NCBI GenBank assembly: GCA_028281535.1
Contig: JANQJS010000063.1
Coordinates: forward strand, 1 to 64,000
Length of the DNA stretch: 64,000 bases
Source: Sedimentisphaerales bacterium
GTDB lineage: Bacteria; Planctomycetota; Phycisphaerae; Sedimentisphaerales; SM23-30
Reading direction: 5' to 3'
Made by a program: the position numbers and the translations under genes. Shown here one piece after another: positions 33,911 through 37,804 of the stretch (the first letter of the stretch is position 1; every line of letters starts with the position of its first letter). The notes beneath the pieces were generated by a model that was not told the origin of the DNA, searched no databases, and saw nothing but the letters and a program-made list of their open reading frames with translations.

Positions 33911-35263
33911 TTGAGCTATACGCCTAATACTTCGATGTGGAAAAATCTGGTTAAACCTTTAATCAAAGGGAAAACACCAGGCCAATTAATTATACAATTA
34001 ACCACTTCCTGTAATGCCGCTTGCCCTCAATGTGAAATGCGTCGCAGTGCTGAGATTCCACGATCTCGATTGACGACCGATCAAGTCAAAGCCATGATTG
34101 ACGAAGCGGCCCAGCAAGGTATCCAAGCATTATCTTTTACGGGCGGTGAACCCTTATTAATGAAAAAAGAATTAATCGAATTGATTCGCCATGCGGGTGC
34201 GGCTGGAATTCCTTATATACGCACAGGTACGAATGGCTTTATGTTTAGAAATACTGAATCGGCCGGTTGGGAAGCAAGGGTTAGAGGTCTACTTGAAGAG
34301 TTGGCCTCGACAAACTTGTATACGTTCTGGATTAGTATCGATTCCGCTGAAACAAAGCGACACGAAGACATTCGCGGCTTAAAAGGTGTCATAAAGGGTA
34401 TTGAAAAAGCAGTCCCCCTATTTCATGAATATAGTATTTATCCAGCGGCCAATCTCGGTATCAATCGCTATACCGGTGGTAGTGAATTTGAAATGCCTTA
34501 CCGCTCACCTCAAACATTTAACAGCGATGTATTTTACCATACCTGCAGAAATGCCTTTAATACGTTTTATCGTAAAGTGGTGGATCTGGGTTTTACCATT
34601 ACAAATACTTGCTATCCTATGAGTGTACAAACAACTCGACCGGAAGAGTTGGAATTGGTTTATCAAGCGTCCAGTTCAGATATTATGGTTCGTTTCCGAG
34701 CTGAAGAAAAAGTCGCGATGTTCCGAGCACTCATCGATACAATTCCTAGTTTTCGAGATCAAATAAGAATTTTTACACCTCGCTGCAGCCTTTATAGCTT
34801 AAGTGAACATTATGATAATGGCACTGAAATGGGCTATCCTTGTCGCGGTGGTAAAGATTATTTCTTTGTCGATTCAACCAGCACCAATGCCTATCCATGT
34901 GGCTTTCGCGCTGAAAGCCTGGGACCATTTACCGATATGGATCGCACGAAAATTGAAAAAGAAGCAAGTTGTAGAAAATGTGACTGGGAATGCTTTCGGG
35001 ATCCATCGGAAATGCTTGGCCCCATCCTGGAATTACGAACAAAACCGATGAGCCTTCTCAAACGCCTTTTCCGTGAAAAAGAATTCATAAAATTCTGGCG
35101 TGAAGATTTACGTTATTACAACGCTTGCAGCTTTTTCTCAGGACGAAAAGCGCCTGATTATCAAAAAATGAAACGCACCACACGCAGAAACCATAACACC
35201 TCCCAATGCGTGGGACATCGGGACCCACACGAACAACCAGACATGGAGCTATCCTATAGCTAG
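33911..35263 (+). CDS. Radical SAM enzyme with a C-terminal Cys-rich (SPASM/twitch-like) extension (TTG start)
   Basis: 450 aa with a CNAACPQC (CX3CX2C) motif near the N-terminus. The C-terminal third has additional Cys residues (CRGG...C...CRKCDWEC). A GAGAGG RBS lies 8 nt before the TTG. Confidence 0.75.
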   Translation: MSYTPNTSMWKNLVKPLIKGKTPGQLIIQLTTSCNAACPQCEMRRSAEIPRSRLTTDQVKAMIDEAAQQGIQALSFTGGEPLLMKKELIELIRHAGAAGIPYIRTGTNGFMFRNTESAGWEARVRGLLEELASTNLYTFWISIDSAETKRHEDIRGLKGVIKGIEKAVPLFHEYSIYPAANLGINRYTGGSEFEMPYRSPQTFNSDVFYHTCRNAFNTFYRKVVDLGFTITNTCYPMSVQTTRPEELELVYQASSSDIMVRFRAEEKVAMFRALIDTIPSFRDQIRIFTPRCSLYSLSEHYDNGTEMGYPCRGGKDYFFVDSTSTNAYPCGFRAESLGPFTDMDRTKIEKEASCRKCDWECFRDPSEMLGPILELRTKPMSLLKRLFREKEFIKFWREDLRYYNACSFFSGRKAPDYQKMKRTTRRNHNTSQCVGHRDPHEQPDMELSYS

Positions 35264-35338
35264 CTCACAAGTAAAGGTAACGATACCTATCAAAAAACAT
35301 ACAGAGTGATTTTTGAACATTATTCGTAGGAGCAAACG

Positions 35339-37804
35339 ATGAAAATTGATCTACATGTACATTCCGCATTTTCAAAGCGACCAGCGAACTGGTTATTTAA
35401 AAAAATAGGTTGCGCGGAAAGCTACACAGACCCACATCTACTCTATGATATCGCCATGAAAAAAGGAATGGACATGGTCACAATCACTGACCATAACACA
35501 ATTGATGGCTGTTTAGAAATTGCTCATCGCCCTAACACATTTATCAGCAGTGAAGTGACTACTTATTTCCCTGAAGATGGATGCAAATTGCATATCCTGG
35601 TACATGATGTAACAGAAGAACAATTCAAACAGGTGAATTACCTGCGAAAAAATGTTTATGATATGGTCGACTATTTAAAGAAGGAAGGCATCAACCACGC
35701 CCTGGCACACCCTTTTTATTCGGTGAATAATCGCTTAACGATTGACCACTTTGAAAAATGCGTATTGCTCTTTGAAATCTTTGAACTCAATGGCGACAAT
35801 GATGAATATGTCAATATCACACTCCAGAAAATTTTATCGCAACTCAATGAAACACAAATTGCTCGCCTAGTGGATCGCCATAACATTTATCCAGATCAGC
35901 CACAGCCTTGGATCAAAGGATTCTTAGGCGGTTCTGATGATCATAGCTCTTTGCATATTGCTCGCACATTTACTGAATGTGTAAATTGCAATACGCTACC
36001 GGAATTTTTTGATGAGATTAAACATCAAAATGGCGTCGTTCGTTTCAATCGTCCATCCACCCCCATGTCGATGGCACTGCACACCTATAGTGTTGCCTAT
36101 CAATATTATAATAATCGTGTGAATATTTCAAAATACCGTGAGTATAATATTCTGGTCGCTTTTCTGGATCGCATGTTACAAACACAACCTTATGCCAATC
36201 CGTCACTACTTAAACGTCTCTATATGAAATGGAATCAGCGTCCCAGCAAAAAGGCAAAAAATAATCAGCAACATGGCATCAAGGAAGTATTACAGGAAGA
36301 AGCACAAAAATTTATCGCCCAAGACAAAAAATTAGCAGCCTTTGTTGCCAATACTCATGTGGGTGATATTGAGCGAGATGAATACTGGTATCGCTTTGTC
36401 AACAATATTGGCAATGAGACATTAAGCCTGCTAGGAACACGCATTTTAGGTAACTTACAGAAAGCAAATCCTTTTGATCTATTCCATGCGATAGGGTCTG
36501 CCGGCTCTCTCTACTCTTTGATAGCTCCATTTTTTGCCGCCTACAAAATCTATGGCAAAACTCGCCAATTTGCCAATGCCACTAAAATGCATTTTTCCGA
36601 GCGTCCCATGCAACCTCAACCCAATATTGGTTTTTTTACGGATACCTTTGAAGAAATTAATGGTGTGGCATTAACATTGCAAAAATACGCTTCATTAGCT
36701 AATCAAATGGGGAAAAAATTAGAAATCTTGACCTGTAAAAAAGAGAATGAAACAGGTCAACTGGATGCACAGGGCGTAAAATATTTTAATTCTATCAGCG
36801 AGTATGAATTACCGGAATACCCGGAAGTGAAATTATACATGCCGCCGATTCTGGAATTGATGAACTATTGCTACAAAAAGAATTTCACTCATATCCATGG
36901 TGTTACTCCCGGTCCGATGGGACTGTGCGGTTTGGCAATTGCACGCATCATGAAATTACCTTTCTATACCACCTATCACACCGCAATGCCGCAATATGCT
37001 GGCTATTTAACAGGTGATAAAATCGTGGAAGATTTGATGTGGCAATTTATGATCTGGTTTTACAATCAAGCGGACATTGTTTTTTCACCATCGGAGGCTT
37101 TTTCAGACGAACTGATTTTAAAAGGTATTGCTGCTGAAAAATTACGACTCGTACCTCGGGGCGTTGAAATTGACCGCTTTAATCCACATGCCGTTTCAGA
37201 CAAAGTGAACTTCAAAAAAGGCGTCAAGATGATTTATGTTGGCCGCGTATCCAAGGAAAAAAACATGCCGATATTAGAAAATGCCTTTAAAAAGCTGATG
37301 AAGTCTTACCCGGATCTCTCTTTGGTGGTCGTTGGAGATGGCCCTTATTTGAATCAAATGAAAAAGAATCTTGCAGGTTTACCTTGTAAGTTTACTGGTT
37401 ACATGGAAGGTGGTGATGTCGCGGCAGCCTATGCCTCTTGTGATTTATTTGTCTTTCCTAGCACAACAGATACCTTTGGTAATGTGGTTCTGGAAGCTCA
37501 AGCCTGCGGTCTTCCGATTATCGTCACCGACCAAGGCGGCCCGCAGGAAAATATTATCCCTGACGAAACGGGATTAATCGTTCGAGGCAACGATGAAGCA
37601 GCCATAATCGAAGCGATCGTCACCTTACTGGACAATCCACAACGACGTCTGGAAATGGGACACTATGCCCGGGAATATGCTTTGACCCGCGATTACAATC
37701 TTGCTTTTGAACAATACATTAACTTCTATCAGAAATCGCTGATGGACATGATGAAAACAACACAACAAACTGGATTATCAAACGCTACCTTTACCGTTAA
37801 CTAG
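35339..37804 (+). CDS. Fusion protein: N-terminal PHP-family metal-dependent phosphoesterase domain, ~200-aa linker, C-terminal GT4 (group 1) glycosyltransferase
   Basis: 821 aa. The N-terminus reads MKIDLHVHSAFSKR...ITDHNTIDG...LHILVHDV, which are PHP His/Asp motifs. The C-terminal 380 aa have the GT4 Rossmann pair and an EX7E-like region (FVFPSTTDTFGNVVLEAQACGLPII). Confidence 0.75.
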   Translation: MKIDLHVHSAFSKRPANWLFKKIGCAESYTDPHLLYDIAMKKGMDMVTITDHNTIDGCLEIAHRPNTFISSEVTTYFPEDGCKLHILVHDVTEEQFKQVNYLRKNVYDMVDYLKKEGINHALAHPFYSVNNRLTIDHFEKCVLLFEIFELNGDNDEYVNITLQKILSQLNETQIARLVDRHNIYPDQPQPWIKGFLGGSDDHSSLHIARTFTECVNCNTLPEFFDEIKHQNGVVRFNRPSTPMSMALHTYSVAYQYYNNRVNISKYREYNILVAFLDRMLQTQPYANPSLLKRLYMKWNQRPSKKAKNNQQHGIKEVLQEEAQKFIAQDKKLAAFVANTHVGDIERDEYWYRFVNNIGNETLSLLGTRILGNLQKANPFDLFHAIGSAGSLYSLIAPFFAAYKIYGKTRQFANATKMHFSERPMQPQPNIGFFTDTFEEINGVALTLQKYASLANQMGKKLEILTCKKENETGQLDAQGVKYFNSISEYELPEYPEVKLYMPPILELMNYCYKKNFTHIHGVTPGPMGLCGLAIARIMKLPFYTTYHTAMPQYAGYLTGDKIVEDLMWQFMIWFYNQADIVFSPSEAFSDELILKGIAAEKLRLVPRGVEIDRFNPHAVSDKVNFKKGVKMIYVGRVSKEKNMPILENAFKKLMKSYPDLSLVVVGDGPYLNQMKKNLAGLPCKFTGYMEGGDVAAAYASCDLFVFPSTTDTFGNVVLEAQACGLPIIVTDQGGPQENIIPDETGLIVRGNDEAAIIEAIVTLLDNPQRRLEMGHYAREYALTRDYNLAFEQYINFYQKSLMDMMKTTQQTGLSNATFTVN

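What the first reader, a model, noticed from the sequence alone, without database searches (positions are those of the whole stretch)
33911..37804. Radical-SAM (auxiliary-cluster type) gene plus PHP-phosphoesterase::GT4 glycosyltransferase fusion downstream of rtcR
The two genes form a tight plus-strand pair ending in a strong terminator. A GT4 synthase domain fused to a phosphatase domain recalls sucrose-phosphate synthase/phosphatase logic: make a glycoside-phosphate, then dephosphorylate it. Here the phosphatase is PHP rather than HAD, with a 200-aa linker of unknown function. The neighbouring rSAM has extra C-terminal cysteines suggestive of a SPASM/twitch auxiliary Fe-S domain. The product (an osmolyte-like glycoside, a modified sugar or a glycolipid head group) cannot be deduced from the sequence.
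Basis: partly seen in the sequence, partly recalled or inferred. Interest (0 to 1): 0.6.

Follow-up and report, generated by a model that had tools for sequence, protein, structure and literature searches.

The report
Phosphate-starvation glycolipid synthase with radical-SAM partner
The two genes are real. The large one is an ortholog of the enzyme that a sulfate-reducing bacterium needs to replace membrane phospholipids with phosphorus-free glycolipids when phosphate is scarce, but the roles of its fused PHP phosphoesterase domain and of the neighbouring radical-SAM enzyme have never been studied.

Summary
A TTG-start radical-SAM gene (33911-35263) and a PHP::linker::GT4 fusion gene (35339-37804) form a co-directional pair that ends in a strong terminator.

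The interpretation needs revising. The fusion is 45% identical over its full length to Oleidesulfovibrio alaskensis Dde_3613. A transposon mutant of Dde_3613 loses all glycolipids (MGDG, GADG) and grows poorly only at low phosphate (Bosak 2016).

Relatives of the fusion sit near Pst/PhoU/PhoH/alkaline-phosphatase genes in 30 of 80 loci, and near other lipid genes such as OlsF-like, PSD and LGT-like. So this is a lipid-renovation module of the PlcP/Agt type, not a sucrose-phosphate-synthase-like osmolyte pathway.

The PHP metal ligands are invariant. In relatives whose GT4 lacks the PHP module, a Zn-dependent phospholipase C gene sits directly upstream. This suggests, but does not show, that the PHP module makes the diacylglycerol acceptor.

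The radical-SAM enzyme has seven extra conserved cysteines. It lies within 400 bp of the fusion or GT4 in about half of well-flanked loci, in either gene order. Its closest solved relative is BlsE, and its reaction is unknown.

There is no link to rtcR. I rate it a new variant of a known kind, of moderate interest.

The parts
33697..33910 (+). Upstream intergenic region of the pair; the promoter is not identified.
   Evidence: It contains no E. coli-type Pho box and no sigma-54 -24/-12 element. It contains no plus-strand small ORF. A GAGAGG Shine-Dalgarno precedes the TTG start.
33911..35263 (+). Radical-SAM enzyme gene (450 aa, TTG start) of a conserved, unnamed family.
34010..34033 (+). CxxxCxxC motif (C34, C38, C41) that binds the SAM-cleaving [4Fe-4S] cluster.
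   Evidence: The sequence is CNAACPQC. The three cysteines are invariant in 27 homologs.
34841..34993 (+). Cys-rich segment C311, C330, C354-x2-C357-x3-C361, which with C234 and C406 forms the probable auxiliary Fe-S (SPASM/twitch-like) region.
35264..35338 (+). 75-bp spacer with an AGGAG ribosome-binding site; no terminator.
35339..36058 (+). PHP-superfamily metal-dependent phosphoesterase domain (aa 1-240) of the fusion.
   Evidence: H6, H8, D51, H52, E72, H85, H124, D200 and H202 are conserved. At family level, 15 of 16 members hit Pfam PHP and 16 of 16 hit the NCBIfam CehA/McbA domain. The model is confident here (block pLDDT 90-97 apart from residues 11-30).
36059..36622 (+). Conserved all-helical linker (aa 241-428) with no known family. 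Includes two long helices (343-373 and 379-418) and a moderately hydrophobic stretch at 381-400.
   Evidence: The linker travels with the PHP domain in 1531 representatives, nearly always followed by GT4.
36623..37768 (+). GT4 (GT-B fold) retaining glycosyltransferase domain (aa 429-810), the Agt-type glycolipid synthase domain.
   Evidence: Pfam Glycos_transf_1 128 bits and Glyco_transf_4 71 bits. E719 and E737 of the ExxxxxxxE-type motif are invariant. Foldseek top hits are MshA, BshA, PimB' and PimA. The whole protein is 45% identical to Dde_3613.
37816..37843 (+). Intrinsic terminator closing the two-gene operon.
   Evidence: A 7-bp stem with 6 GC pairs, loop TACG, followed by TTCATTTTTTT.

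Best explanation
The pair is a membrane-lipid renovation module used when phosphate is scarce.

Shown by homology to a genetically tested ortholog: the C-terminal GT4 domain of the fusion transfers a hexose or hexuronic acid from a UDP-sugar to diacylglycerol (or its ether analogues). This gives the phosphorus-free glycolipids MGDG and GADG, which replace phospholipids.

Inferred: the N-terminal PHP domain, held to the GT4 by a conserved helical linker, is a metal-dependent phosphoesterase that produces the diacylglycerol acceptor at the membrane. It would do this by removing the phospho-head group from phospholipids (phospholipase-C-like) or the phosphate from phosphatidate. That releases phosphorus for the cell and channels the lipid backbone into the transferase. 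In this reading it does the job of PlcP in the PlcP-Agt operons of aerobic bacteria, but with a different fold and as a fusion.

Inferred more weakly: the co-transcribed radical-SAM enzyme has a SAM cluster and probably two auxiliary Fe-S clusters. It acts in the same pathway on a small molecule or lipid rather than on a peptide. The most likely reaction is an oxygen-independent radical tailoring of the sugar head group, such as epimerisation, oxidation or decarboxylation of the hexosyl or hexuronosyl moiety. Its reaction is not known.
For: 1. Ortholog genetics.
- O. alaskensis P0467 (816 aa) is 45% identical to the window protein over 813 aa, across all three regions.
- Its neighbours are a PP-loop ATPase, GT2, metallophosphoesterase and a TIGR00726-type protein. 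This matches the Dde_3611 / Dde_3613 / Dde_3615 / TIGR00726 order in the Bosak 2016 supplement.
- In that supplement Dde_3613 is auto-annotated 'PHP domain N-terminal region' and 'glycosyltransferase group I'.
- The Dde_3613 mutant lacks all MGDG and GADG and is impaired only at 2-10 uM phosphate (PMC5193443 section 18).

2. Genomic context.
- 30 of 80 genome loci carry PstS, PstCA, PhoU, PhoH-PIN or alkaline phosphatase within 8 kb.
- 43 of 80 carry neighbour families that are mostly lipid-related: PSD, LGT-like, OlsF-like, lipase, a Methyltransf_24 methyltransferase and an unannotated ~814-aa protein.

3. Nearest GT models are lipid or inositol-phosphate-directed GT4s.
- GlcN-PG synthase scores 117 bits, and MGlcDAG synthase aligns over residues 429-764.
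- PimA, PimB' and MshA are the nearest structures.

4. The PHP domain looks active.
- Its metal ligands are invariant.

5. Non-homologous displacement.
- In L087, L100, L104, L128 and L164, a standalone GT4 is preceded by a ~200-aa Zn-dependent phospholipase C (PF00882, E=6e-20). This GT4 is 31-34% identical to the window's GT4 domain and shares the FxDTxxxINGV motif.
- In L087, L100, L104 and L128 it is also accompanied by UDP-glucose 6-dehydrogenase.
- The same radical-SAM enzyme is present in all five.

6. Precedent.
- PlcP commonly forms an operon with agt (PMC4796936 Fig. 3).

7. Radical-SAM linkage and type.
- It is adjacent to the fusion in both gene orders.
- It also lies near PhoH, OlsF or the LGT/PSD cluster when the fusion is absent (L088, L133, L143, L145).
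- There is no RiPP-like small ORF next to it, and no separate N-terminal domain precedes the radical-SAM core.
- The best sequence and structure match is BlsE, a radical decarboxylase of a glucuronide.
Against: - No activity of any PHP domain on lipids is known (my knowledge). No paper in the searchable library discusses this domain.
- The PHP call is below the curated thresholds of Pfam and NCBIfam.
- In O. alaskensis a separate 238-aa metallophosphoesterase lies 0.6 kb from Dde_3613 and could be the real diacylglycerol supplier. It matches only generic YfcE-type models weakly and shows no low-phosphate fitness defect.
- The window itself gives no evidence of phosphate control. There is no Pho box of the E. 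coli type, and the neighbours are rtc genes and a cyanate/nitrate ABC operon.
- The fusion has no transmembrane helix (maximum 19-residue hydropathy 1.31).
- The radical-SAM gene is absent from the 6 kb around Dde_3613 and from most fusion loci (59 of 80). It also occurs alone (L082, L083, L085). So it is not required next to the transferase, and may not be required for MGDG or GADG at all.
- Lipidomics of phosphate-limited G20 and Desulfatibacillum report ordinary hexosyl and hexuronosyl head groups, with no decarboxylated product.
Confidence: 0.68

Rival explanations
1. The GT4 domain glycosylates a phosphorylated soluble acceptor, and the PHP domain then removes the phosphate, giving a compatible solute or modified sugar (SPS/SPP, GpgS/GpgP or MshA/MshA2 logic).
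For: Fusions or operons of a GT with a phosphatase are a recurrent design (established knowledge). MshA and sucrose-phosphate synthase are among the structural neighbours of the GT4 domain.
Against: - The ortholog Dde_3613 is required for membrane glycolipids, and the mutant phenotype is lipid-specific and phosphate-specific.
- The neighbourhoods are Pho-regulon and lipid genes, not osmoregulation genes.
- A phospholipase C replaces the PHP module in relatives.
- The SPS model scores 43 bits against a cut-off of 576, and the MshA model 80 against 462.
Confidence: 0.06
2. Same lipid-renovation pathway, but the PHP domain is not a phospholipase C. It would be a phosphomonoesterase acting on phosphatidate or PGP. 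Or it would recycle the released phospho-head groups (phosphoethanolamine, glycerol-3-phosphate) to free phosphate, or be a regulatory or structural module.
For: Characterised PHP enzymes are mostly phosphomonoesterases or nucleases, such as histidinol phosphatase and 3',5'-bisphosphate phosphatase. Weak hits to the latter appear in 8 of 16 members. L128 carries a PAP2 phosphatase between the phospholipase C and the GT4. O. alaskensis has a separate metallophosphoesterase nearby.
Against: - In all five loci that carry it, the gene occupying the PHP position in unfused clusters is a Zn-dependent phospholipase C, not a monoesterase.
- PlcP-agt operons set the precedent for a diesterase.
Confidence: 0.22
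3. The radical-SAM gene is only a regulon mate. It works in a different phosphate-starvation process, for example synthesis of another phosphorus-free lipid such as the sulfur-containing aminolipids of Desulfatibacillum. Or it post-translationally matures a protein. It does not act on the product of the fusion.
For: - It occurs without the fusion but next to PhoH, OlsF-like, or the LGT-like/PSD/814-aa cluster (L088, L133, L143, L145, L146).
- It is absent near Dde_3613, which suffices genetically for MGDG and GADG.
- Most of its structural neighbours are protein- or peptide-modifying SPASM enzymes: anSME, SkfB, SuiB, ChlB and EpeE.
Against: - It is directly adjacent to the GT4-containing gene in 18 of 35 well-flanked loci, in either gene order and in both the fused and unfused architectures.
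- No precursor-peptide ORF lies beside it in the window, and no separate N-terminal domain precedes the radical-SAM core.
- About 50% identity across phyla suggests a conserved small substrate.
Confidence: 0.3
4. A generic cell-envelope polysaccharide glycosyltransferase, as the automatic annotation 'glycosyltransferase involved in cell wall biosynthesis' suggests, next to an unrelated radical-SAM gene.
For: JGI auto-names. Weak hits to EPS and PEP-CTERM GT4 models.
Against: - All such hits are far below their cut-offs.
- The loci contain no polysaccharide export or polymerase genes.
- The ortholog's lipid phenotype.
- The conserved pairing with the radical-SAM gene.
Confidence: 0.03

Closest known systems
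Dde_3613 ('Agt') of Oleidesulfovibrio (Desulfovibrio) alaskensis G20, the glycolipid synthase needed at low phosphate (Bosak et al. 2016, PMC5193443)
   Same: It has the same three-part architecture (PHP, helical linker, GT4) and a similar length (816 vs 821 aa). It is 45% identical over 813 aa, so it belongs to the same family.
   Different: In O. alaskensis the gene has no radical-SAM neighbour and sits beside a GT2 and a metallophosphoesterase. The paper treats it simply as an Agt homolog and never mentions the PHP domain or linker (0 occurrences of 'PHP' or 'phospholipase' in the main text).
PlcP-Agt lipid-renovation operons of SAR11, roseobacters, Agrobacterium/Sinorhizobium and Pseudomonas (Sebastian 2016, PMC4796936; Semeniuk 2014)
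   Same: The logic is the same. A phosphoesterase frees diacylglycerol from phospholipids, and a GT4 enzyme converts it to MGDG and GADG under Pho control. The two functions are genetically coupled.
   Different: PlcP is a calcineurin-type metallophosphoesterase encoded by a separate gene. Here the phosphoesterase is a PHP-fold domain fused to the transferase through a 190-aa helical linker. The hosts are mostly anaerobes, and a radical-SAM enzyme is a frequent third component. The lipid activity of the PHP domain is inferred, not shown.
Zn-phospholipase C / GT4 / UDP-glucose dehydrogenase / radical-SAM clusters in metagenomic contigs (L087, L100, L104, L128; this study)
   Same: They contain the same radical-SAM family (46-51% identity) and a related GT4 (31-34% identity), and presumably run the same pathway.
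   Different: The phosphoesterase is a separate ~200-aa PF00882 protein, not a fused PHP domain. A UDP-glucuronate-forming dehydrogenase is encoded in the cluster. These clusters are uncharacterised.
BlsE, cytosylglucuronate decarboxylase (PDB 7VOB)
   Different: The sequence match covers only residues 25-180. The BlsE family model scores 45.8 bits against a cut-off of 400. The window protein has seven extra conserved cysteines and a C-terminal helical domain. Known low-phosphate lipids retain the uronic acid.
Radical-SAM enzymes that remodel glycolipid head groups: calditol synthase Cds (Sulfolobus) and HpnJ (hopanoid cyclitol ether)
   Same: They set a precedent for a radical-SAM enzyme acting on the sugar of a membrane glycolipid made by a nearby glycosyltransferase (my knowledge of Zeng 2018 and of the hpn literature).
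   Different: No detectable specific homology. HpnJ is B12-dependent and no B12 domain is present here. No carbocyclic head group has been reported in the relevant bacteria.
Sucrose-phosphate synthase/phosphatase and related synthase-phosphatase pairs
   Same: A GT-B glycosyltransferase is coupled to a phosphatase, and the GT4 fold is similar.
   Different: The phosphatase fold is different (HAD vs PHP). The inferred order of reactions is reversed, and the acceptor is a lipid rather than a soluble molecule. The SPS model is far below its cut-off.

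Membership tests
GT4 glycosyltransferases (Pfam Glycos_transf_1 + Glyco_transf_4, GT-B fold) | Both Rossmann-like halves score above the curated thresholds. | tested here: met
   128.2 bits against a cut-off of 26.4, and 71.1 against 28.5. The predicted GT-B fold matches MshA and BshA with TM-score (target-normalised) about 0.8.
GT4 glycosyltransferases | Conserved acidic residues of the C-terminal ExxxxxxxE-type motif. | tested here: met
   E719 and E737 are invariant in 28 sequences.
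Dde_3613-type (PHP::GT4) phosphate-starvation glycolipid synthases | Full-length collinear homology to the genetically characterised member. | tested here: met
   45% identity over 813 of 821 residues to P0467. P0467 is identified as Dde_3613 by gene order.
Dde_3613-type (PHP::GT4) phosphate-starvation glycolipid synthases | Makes MGDG/GADG from diacylglycerol and UDP-sugars. | not testable with these tools
   Needs expression and lipidomics. The inference rests on the ortholog's mutant phenotype.
Dde_3613-type (PHP::GT4) phosphate-starvation glycolipid synthases | Expression or association linked to phosphate limitation. | tested here: inconclusive
   In relatives, 30 of 80 loci have Pho genes within 8 kb. 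In the window there is no E. coli-type Pho box and no Pho neighbours. The organism's own PhoB motif is unknown.
PHP (polymerase and histidinol phosphatase) superfamily | Pfam PHP (PF02811) above the gathering score. | tested here: not met
   The window protein scores 16.2 bits against 26.4. 15 of 16 family members match, with best E=9e-5, and none was shown to reach the gathering score. NCBIfam CehA/McbA scores 30.3 bits against 80.
PHP (polymerase and histidinol phosphatase) superfamily | The four motifs of metal-binding His/Asp/Glu: HxH, a central E and H, a further H, and DxH. | tested here: met
   H6, H8, E72, H85, H124, D200 and H202 (plus D51-H52) are invariant or at least 90% conserved.
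PlcP phospholipase C (calcineurin-like metallophosphoesterase) | Metallophos fold and Pfam PF00149. | tested here: not met
   No Metallophos hit in the fusion. The resemblance is functional only.
Sucrose-phosphate synthase/phosphatase | SPS-type GT domain (TIGR02472) and a HAD phosphatase domain. | tested here: not met
   43.4 bits against a cut-off of 576, matching residues 701-769 only. No HAD domain is present.
Radical SAM superfamily | CxxxCxxC motif and the Pfam Radical_SAM core. | tested here: met
SPASM/twitch auxiliary-cluster radical-SAM enzymes | Pfam SPASM (PF13186) match, or the canonical CX9-15GX4C...CX2CX5CX3C motif. | tested here: not met
   No SPASM hit at E<=0.01 on the whole protein or at E<=10 on the C-terminal 280 aa. 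The motif here is C-x18-C ... C-x2-C-x3-C.
SPASM/twitch auxiliary-cluster radical-SAM enzymes | Additional conserved cysteines sufficient for one or two auxiliary [4Fe-4S] clusters after the core. | tested here: inconclusive
   Seven extra conserved cysteines and structural similarity to anSME, SkfB and SuiB. Cluster binding itself is not testable here.
For HpnJ, also a B12-binding domain. | tested here: not met
   BlsE scores 45.8 against 400, PqqE 39.5 against 381 and AhbD 63.9 against 500. No B12-binding domain was detected. All hits cover only the common core, residues ~25-180.

The most novel reading that the evidence does not exclude
The PHP domain with its helical linker is a previously unrecognised class of membrane-acting phospholipase C or phosphatidate phosphatase, fused to its consumer enzyme. 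The conserved radical-SAM partner carries out an oxygen-independent radical modification of a glycolipid head group (for example epimerisation or oxidation of the hexuronosyl-diacylglycerol). Such a change would be invisible to the mass-spectrometric lipidomics done so far. If so, anaerobes across many phyla would make a structurally distinct phosphorus-sparing glycolipid by chemistry not known in lipid metabolism.
Probability: 0.3. Interest if true: 0.75.

Novelty: new variant of a known kind. Interest (0 to 1): 0.55.

Why it matters
Replacing phospholipids with phosphorus-free lipids is a major strategy under phosphate scarcity. It underlies the use of non-phosphorus lipids as biomarkers in anoxic sediments.

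In aerobes the pathway is PlcP plus Agt. In anaerobes only the 'Agt homolog' Dde_3613 has been tested, and the step that supplies diacylglycerol has not been identified.

This analysis shows four things:
- The anaerobe enzyme is a large, widespread family of PHP::linker::GT4 fusions. The full-length query found 1684 proteins at E<=1e-3 in the 90%-identity collection, distant GT4s included. The PHP-plus-linker module alone found 1531 representatives in the 50%-identity library.
- Its PHP ligands are intact.
- A classical phospholipase C substitutes for the PHP module when it is absent.
- A conserved radical-SAM enzyme of unknown reaction is a frequent partner.

Together these give directly testable candidates for the missing phospholipase of anaerobic lipid renovation and for a new radical step in glycolipid biosynthesis.

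For annotation, these genes should stop being called 'cell wall glycosyltransferase' and 'radical SAM protein'.

Tried and rejected
1. Regulation by RtcR: rejected. No sigma-54 -24/-12 element lies upstream of the radical-SAM gene. The one near rtcR (31933-31947, minus strand) faces the divergent rtc operon.

2. Pho box upstream of the pair: none found with the E. coli consensus at up to 3 mismatches. This is uninformative because the organism is unknown.

3. RiPP maturase idea: no plus-strand small ORF flanks the radical-SAM gene.

4. Transmembrane anchoring of the linker: maximum 19-residue hydropathy is 1.31, below the usual threshold.

5. Confirming PHP by a profile search of solved structures: only a marginal hit to 3E0F (E=0.82).

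6. Fold search of the full fusion model: it returned only GT4 structures. The model could not be cropped, so the PHP fold was not compared structurally.

7. Identifying the source organism:
- The exact-protein look-up found no record.
- The cluster look-up gave no names.
- The window's species is not among the 80 loci kept from the genome scan (best 52% identity).

8. BlsE-like decarboxylation of glucuronosyl-diacylglycerol to a pentosyl lipid: considered. Published low-phosphate lipidomes still show hexuronic-acid lipids, so there is no support for it.

9. Synteny comparison of high-GC Desulfovibrionaceae loci with my simple ORF caller: too noisy. It was replaced by the tool's called genes.

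10. Literature searches for PHP + GT + radical SAM, and for radical SAM + glycolipid or phosphate limitation: nothing relevant.

11. The metallophosphoesterase next to Dde_3613 as a PlcP homolog: it gives only weak YfcE-type hits, which is undecided.

Full report
**1. What is in the sequence**

ORF listing confirms two plus-strand genes at the reported coordinates.

The first, 33911-35263, starts at TTG, 7 nt after a GAGAGG Shine-Dalgarno. It encodes a 450-aa protein with the CNAACPQC radical-SAM motif. It scores 49.6 bits on Pfam Radical_SAM and 37.2 bits on Fer4_12.

The second, 35339-37804, starts 75 bp downstream at ATG after an AGGAG site. It encodes 821 aa.

No terminator-like site lies between the two genes. 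A clear intrinsic terminator, GGGCGGA-TACG-TCCGCCC plus a T-run at 37816-37843, follows the second gene.

The upstream gene, 32107-33696, is rtcR (NCBIfam 777 bits).

**2. Domain anatomy of the fusion**

Residues ~429-800 are an unambiguous GT4 glycosyltransferase. Glycos_transf_1 scores 128 bits and Glyco_transf_4 scores 71 bits.

The N-terminus alone gives only a sub-threshold Pfam PHP hit (16.2 bits, E=0.013). A PDB profile search was marginal.

At family level the assignment is sound:
- 15 of 16 N-terminal segments hit Pfam PHP, and 7 of 16 hit PHP_C.
- 16 of 16 hit the NCBIfam CehA/McbA metallohydrolase domain, a PHP-type model.
- JGI calls several members 'predicted metal-dependent phosphoesterase'.

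In a 28-sequence alignment, the residues expected to bind metals in PHP enzymes are invariant or nearly so: H6, H8, D51-H52, E72, H85, H124 and D200-x-H202.

The 190-aa linker (242-428) is conserved and has no Pfam match. In a confident AlphaFold model (mean pLDDT 86.6, pTM 0.86) it is all-helical, with two long helices at 343-373 and 379-418. It has no transmembrane helix.

I searched the PHP-plus-linker module against 1.84 billion cluster representatives. It found 1531 relatives. They were almost always followed by a full GT4 (about 800-840 aa in total) or by the N-terminal half of one (about 590-670 aa).

**3. The link to experiment**

Homologs of both proteins are numerous, at about 45-55% identity. 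They occur mainly in Desulfobacterota, but also in Hydrogenedentota, Clostridia, Planctomycetota, Nitrospirota and others.

A literature search led to Bosak et al. 2016 (PMC5193443). Transposon mutants of Dde_3613 in Desulfovibrio alaskensis G20 grow normally at 500 uM phosphate and poorly at 2-10 uM. They lack all monoglycosyl- and glycuronosyl-diacylglycerol (section 18). The authors call the gene an Agt homolog.

I then verified the link by sequence:
- A search seeded with a Desulfovibrionaceae member returned an 816-aa 'glycosyltransferase [Oleidesulfovibrio alaskensis]' (P0467).
- P0467 is 45% identical to the window protein over 813 residues, spanning PHP, linker and GT4.
- Its neighbours are a PP-loop ATPase, GT2, eIF-1a-like protein, metallophosphoesterase and a Cu-oxidase_4/TIGR00726 protein. 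This reproduces the Dde_3611 / 3613 / 3615 / TIGR00726 order in the supplement.

P0467 is therefore Dde_3613, and the window gene is its ortholog. The paper's main text never mentions the PHP domain or a phospholipase.

**4. Genomic context in relatives**

I clustered ORFs from 80 genome loci and annotated the cluster representatives.

- 30 of 80 loci carry at least one of PstS, PstC/A, PhoU, PhoH-PIN or alkaline phosphatase within 8 kb. For a handful of genes in megabase genomes, that is far above chance.
- 43 of 80 carry neighbour families that are mostly lipid-related. These are a short PSD plus a Methyltransf_24 methyltransferase (21-25 loci), an OlsF-like ornithine-lipid acyltransferase (9), and an LGT-like / long PSD / 814-aa unknown trio (6-8).
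- A Brocadiaceae contig strings ten such genes together, including the fusion, the radical-SAM gene, a sulfotransferase, a second radical-SAM/SPASM gene, a GT2 and PhoH.

**5. What the PHP domain probably does**

In aerobes, phosphate-starvation glycolipids are made by PlcP and Agt. PlcP is a metallophosphoesterase that releases diacylglycerol from phospholipids. The two genes are often in one operon (PMC4796936 Fig. 3). No PlcP was reported for G20.

Among radical-SAM-centred metagenome loci I found a second architecture, in L087, L100, L104, L128 and L164. Its components are:
- a ~200-aa Zn-dependent phospholipase C (PF00882, E=6e-20);
- directly after it, a standalone GT4 that is 31-34% identical to the window's GT4 domain and shares its N-terminal FxDTxxxINGV motif;
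- UDP-glucose 6-dehydrogenase, in L087, L100, L104 and L128;
- the same radical-SAM family, in all five.

L128 additionally has a PAP2 phosphatase and PhoH.

So a bona fide phospholipase C occupies the place of the PHP module when the GT4 is unfused. This non-homologous displacement is my main argument that the PHP module supplies diacylglycerol. The dehydrogenase supports UDP-glucuronate as a donor.

This step is inferred, not shown. A phosphatidate or PGP phosphatase role, or recycling of phospho-head groups, remains possible. O. alaskensis also has a separate small metallophosphoesterase nearby, which matches only generic models and has no low-phosphate phenotype.

**6. The radical-SAM partner**

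Besides C34/C38/C41, seven cysteines are invariant or nearly so: C234, C311, C330, C354-x2-C357-x3-C361 and C406. However, neither Pfam SPASM nor the canonical SPASM motif is present.

Linkage to the transferase:
- It is adjacent in 21 of 80 fusion-centred loci.
- In 18 of 35 radical-SAM-centred loci with at least 2.7 kb on both sides, a fusion or GT4 homolog lies within 400 bp. In 24 of 35 one lies somewhere in the locus.
- Both gene orders occur, and both the fused and the unfused architecture.
- In the window's own clade of fusions, 3 of 4 are linked. Most of the closest homologs of the two proteins share contigs.

Evidence that it is not obligatory next to the transferase:
- It is absent within 6 kb of Dde_3613.
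- It stands alone in Papillibacter, Albibeggiatoa and D. inopinatus. D. inopinatus encodes a fusion on a different contig.
- It sometimes lies next to PhoH, OlsF or the LGT/PSD cluster without the fusion.

There is no precursor-peptide ORF beside it, and no separate N-terminal domain precedes the radical-SAM core.

I commit to a role in the same lipid-renovation pathway. The most likely reaction is head-group tailoring of the hexosyl or hexuronosyl lipid. The precedents are BlsE on a glucuronide, sugar-epimerising radical-SAM enzymes, Cds and HpnJ (from my own knowledge).

My confidence in this is only about 0.3. A decarboxylation is not supported by published lipidomes, which retain hexuronic acid.

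**7. Relation to rtcR and the window**

The rtc genes lie on the minus strand, divergent from rtcR: RtcB at 25148-26545, RtcA at 26665-27684, and an exonuclease, a band-7 protein and tRNA genes between them and rtcR. A sigma-54-like promoter sits at 31933-31947.

Nothing of that kind precedes the radical-SAM gene, so the position next to rtcR appears incidental. Downstream, on the minus strand, are a DUF1801 gene and a cyanate/nitrate-type ABC transporter with cyanase.

The window gives no direct evidence of phosphate control. The organism could not be named. It is Gram-negative, judging from LpxD and LpxI.

**8. Verdict**

The SPS/SPP interpretation is not supported.

The gene pair is the anaerobe-type version of the known phosphate-starvation lipid-renovation system. 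The transferase function is anchored to a genetically characterised ortholog.

The new elements are the fused PHP phosphoesterase with its helical linker, which is a candidate new type of diacylglycerol-generating enzyme, and the conserved radical-SAM partner of unknown chemistry.

I rate it a new variant of a known kind, with interest 0.55.

Noticed in passing
window 25148-31947 (minus strand): The RtcR-controlled operon divergent from rtcR contains tRNA genes between its protein genes. Its order is: sigma-54-like promoter TGGCACAGGGATTGT at 31933-31947; a 117-aa ORF with no family; tRNA-Lys(ttt) 30803-30876; tRNA-Phe(aaa) 30456-30529; tRNA-Ile(gat) 30382-30457 (ARAGORN only); a band-7/SPFH protein; tRNA-Leu(tag) 28421-28497; a DEDD exonuclease; RtcA; RtcB. 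tRNAs inside an RNA-repair operon recall the tRNA-like Y RNAs of rsr-yrlBA-rtcBA operons.
   Followed up: partly
window 42187-42201 (minus strand), upstream of 38363-42124: A perfect sigma-54 -24/-12 match (TGGCACTTCATTTGC) precedes an operon of a nitrate/cyanate-type ABC transporter (substrate-binding protein, permease, ATPase) with cyanase (39277-39744). This suggests NtrC-type nitrogen control of cyanate use.
   Followed up: no
L004, L021, L030, L035, L039, L084, L096, L143, L145 (e.g. L084:179-4857): A conserved trio often lies beside the fusion and radical-SAM genes, sometimes with PhoH. It consists of an ~810-aa protein with no family, a long phosphatidylserine-decarboxylase-like protein and an LGT-like (prolipoprotein diacylglyceryl transferase-like) membrane protein. 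An LGT-like enzyme makes thioether-linked diacylglyceryl-cysteine. This trio is therefore a candidate for the unassigned sulfur-containing 'butyramide cysteine glycerol' aminolipids that Desulfatibacillum makes at low phosphate (PMC11181052).
   Followed up: partly
L005-L077, about 21-25 loci (e.g. L005:6601-7976): In Syntrophobacterales- and Desulfomonilaceae-type genomes, the fusion is preceded by a Methyltransf_24 methyltransferase and a short PS-decarboxylase-like gene, not by the radical-SAM gene. The two neighbour types are nearly mutually exclusive (2 overlaps) and follow the fusion phylogeny.
   Followed up: partly
P0242-P0258 and others: Many representatives of the PHP-plus-linker module are 590-670 aa long. 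They carry only the N-terminal (acceptor-side) half of GT4, with no Glycos_transf_1 half. They are either contig-end fragments or a genuine split GT-B architecture.
   Followed up: partly
L166:9073-9789 (minus strand) and L166:4724-5773: In O. alaskensis, Dde_3613 is flanked by a GT2 glycosyltransferase (probably Dde_3612) and a 238-aa metallophosphoesterase (Dde_3615). The latter could be a PlcP-like enzyme, but it shows no low-phosphate fitness defect in the published table.
   Followed up: partly
window 7701-16490 and 47508-52472 (minus strand): Two giant ORFs of 2929 aa and 1654 aa were seen in the ORF list but not examined.
   Followed up: no
window 33757-33772: A perfect 5-bp inverted repeat, TTGTG-ATTTGA-CACAA, lies in the intergenic region upstream of the radical-SAM gene. 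It could be a regulator binding site, but it matches no consensus I tested.
   Followed up: no
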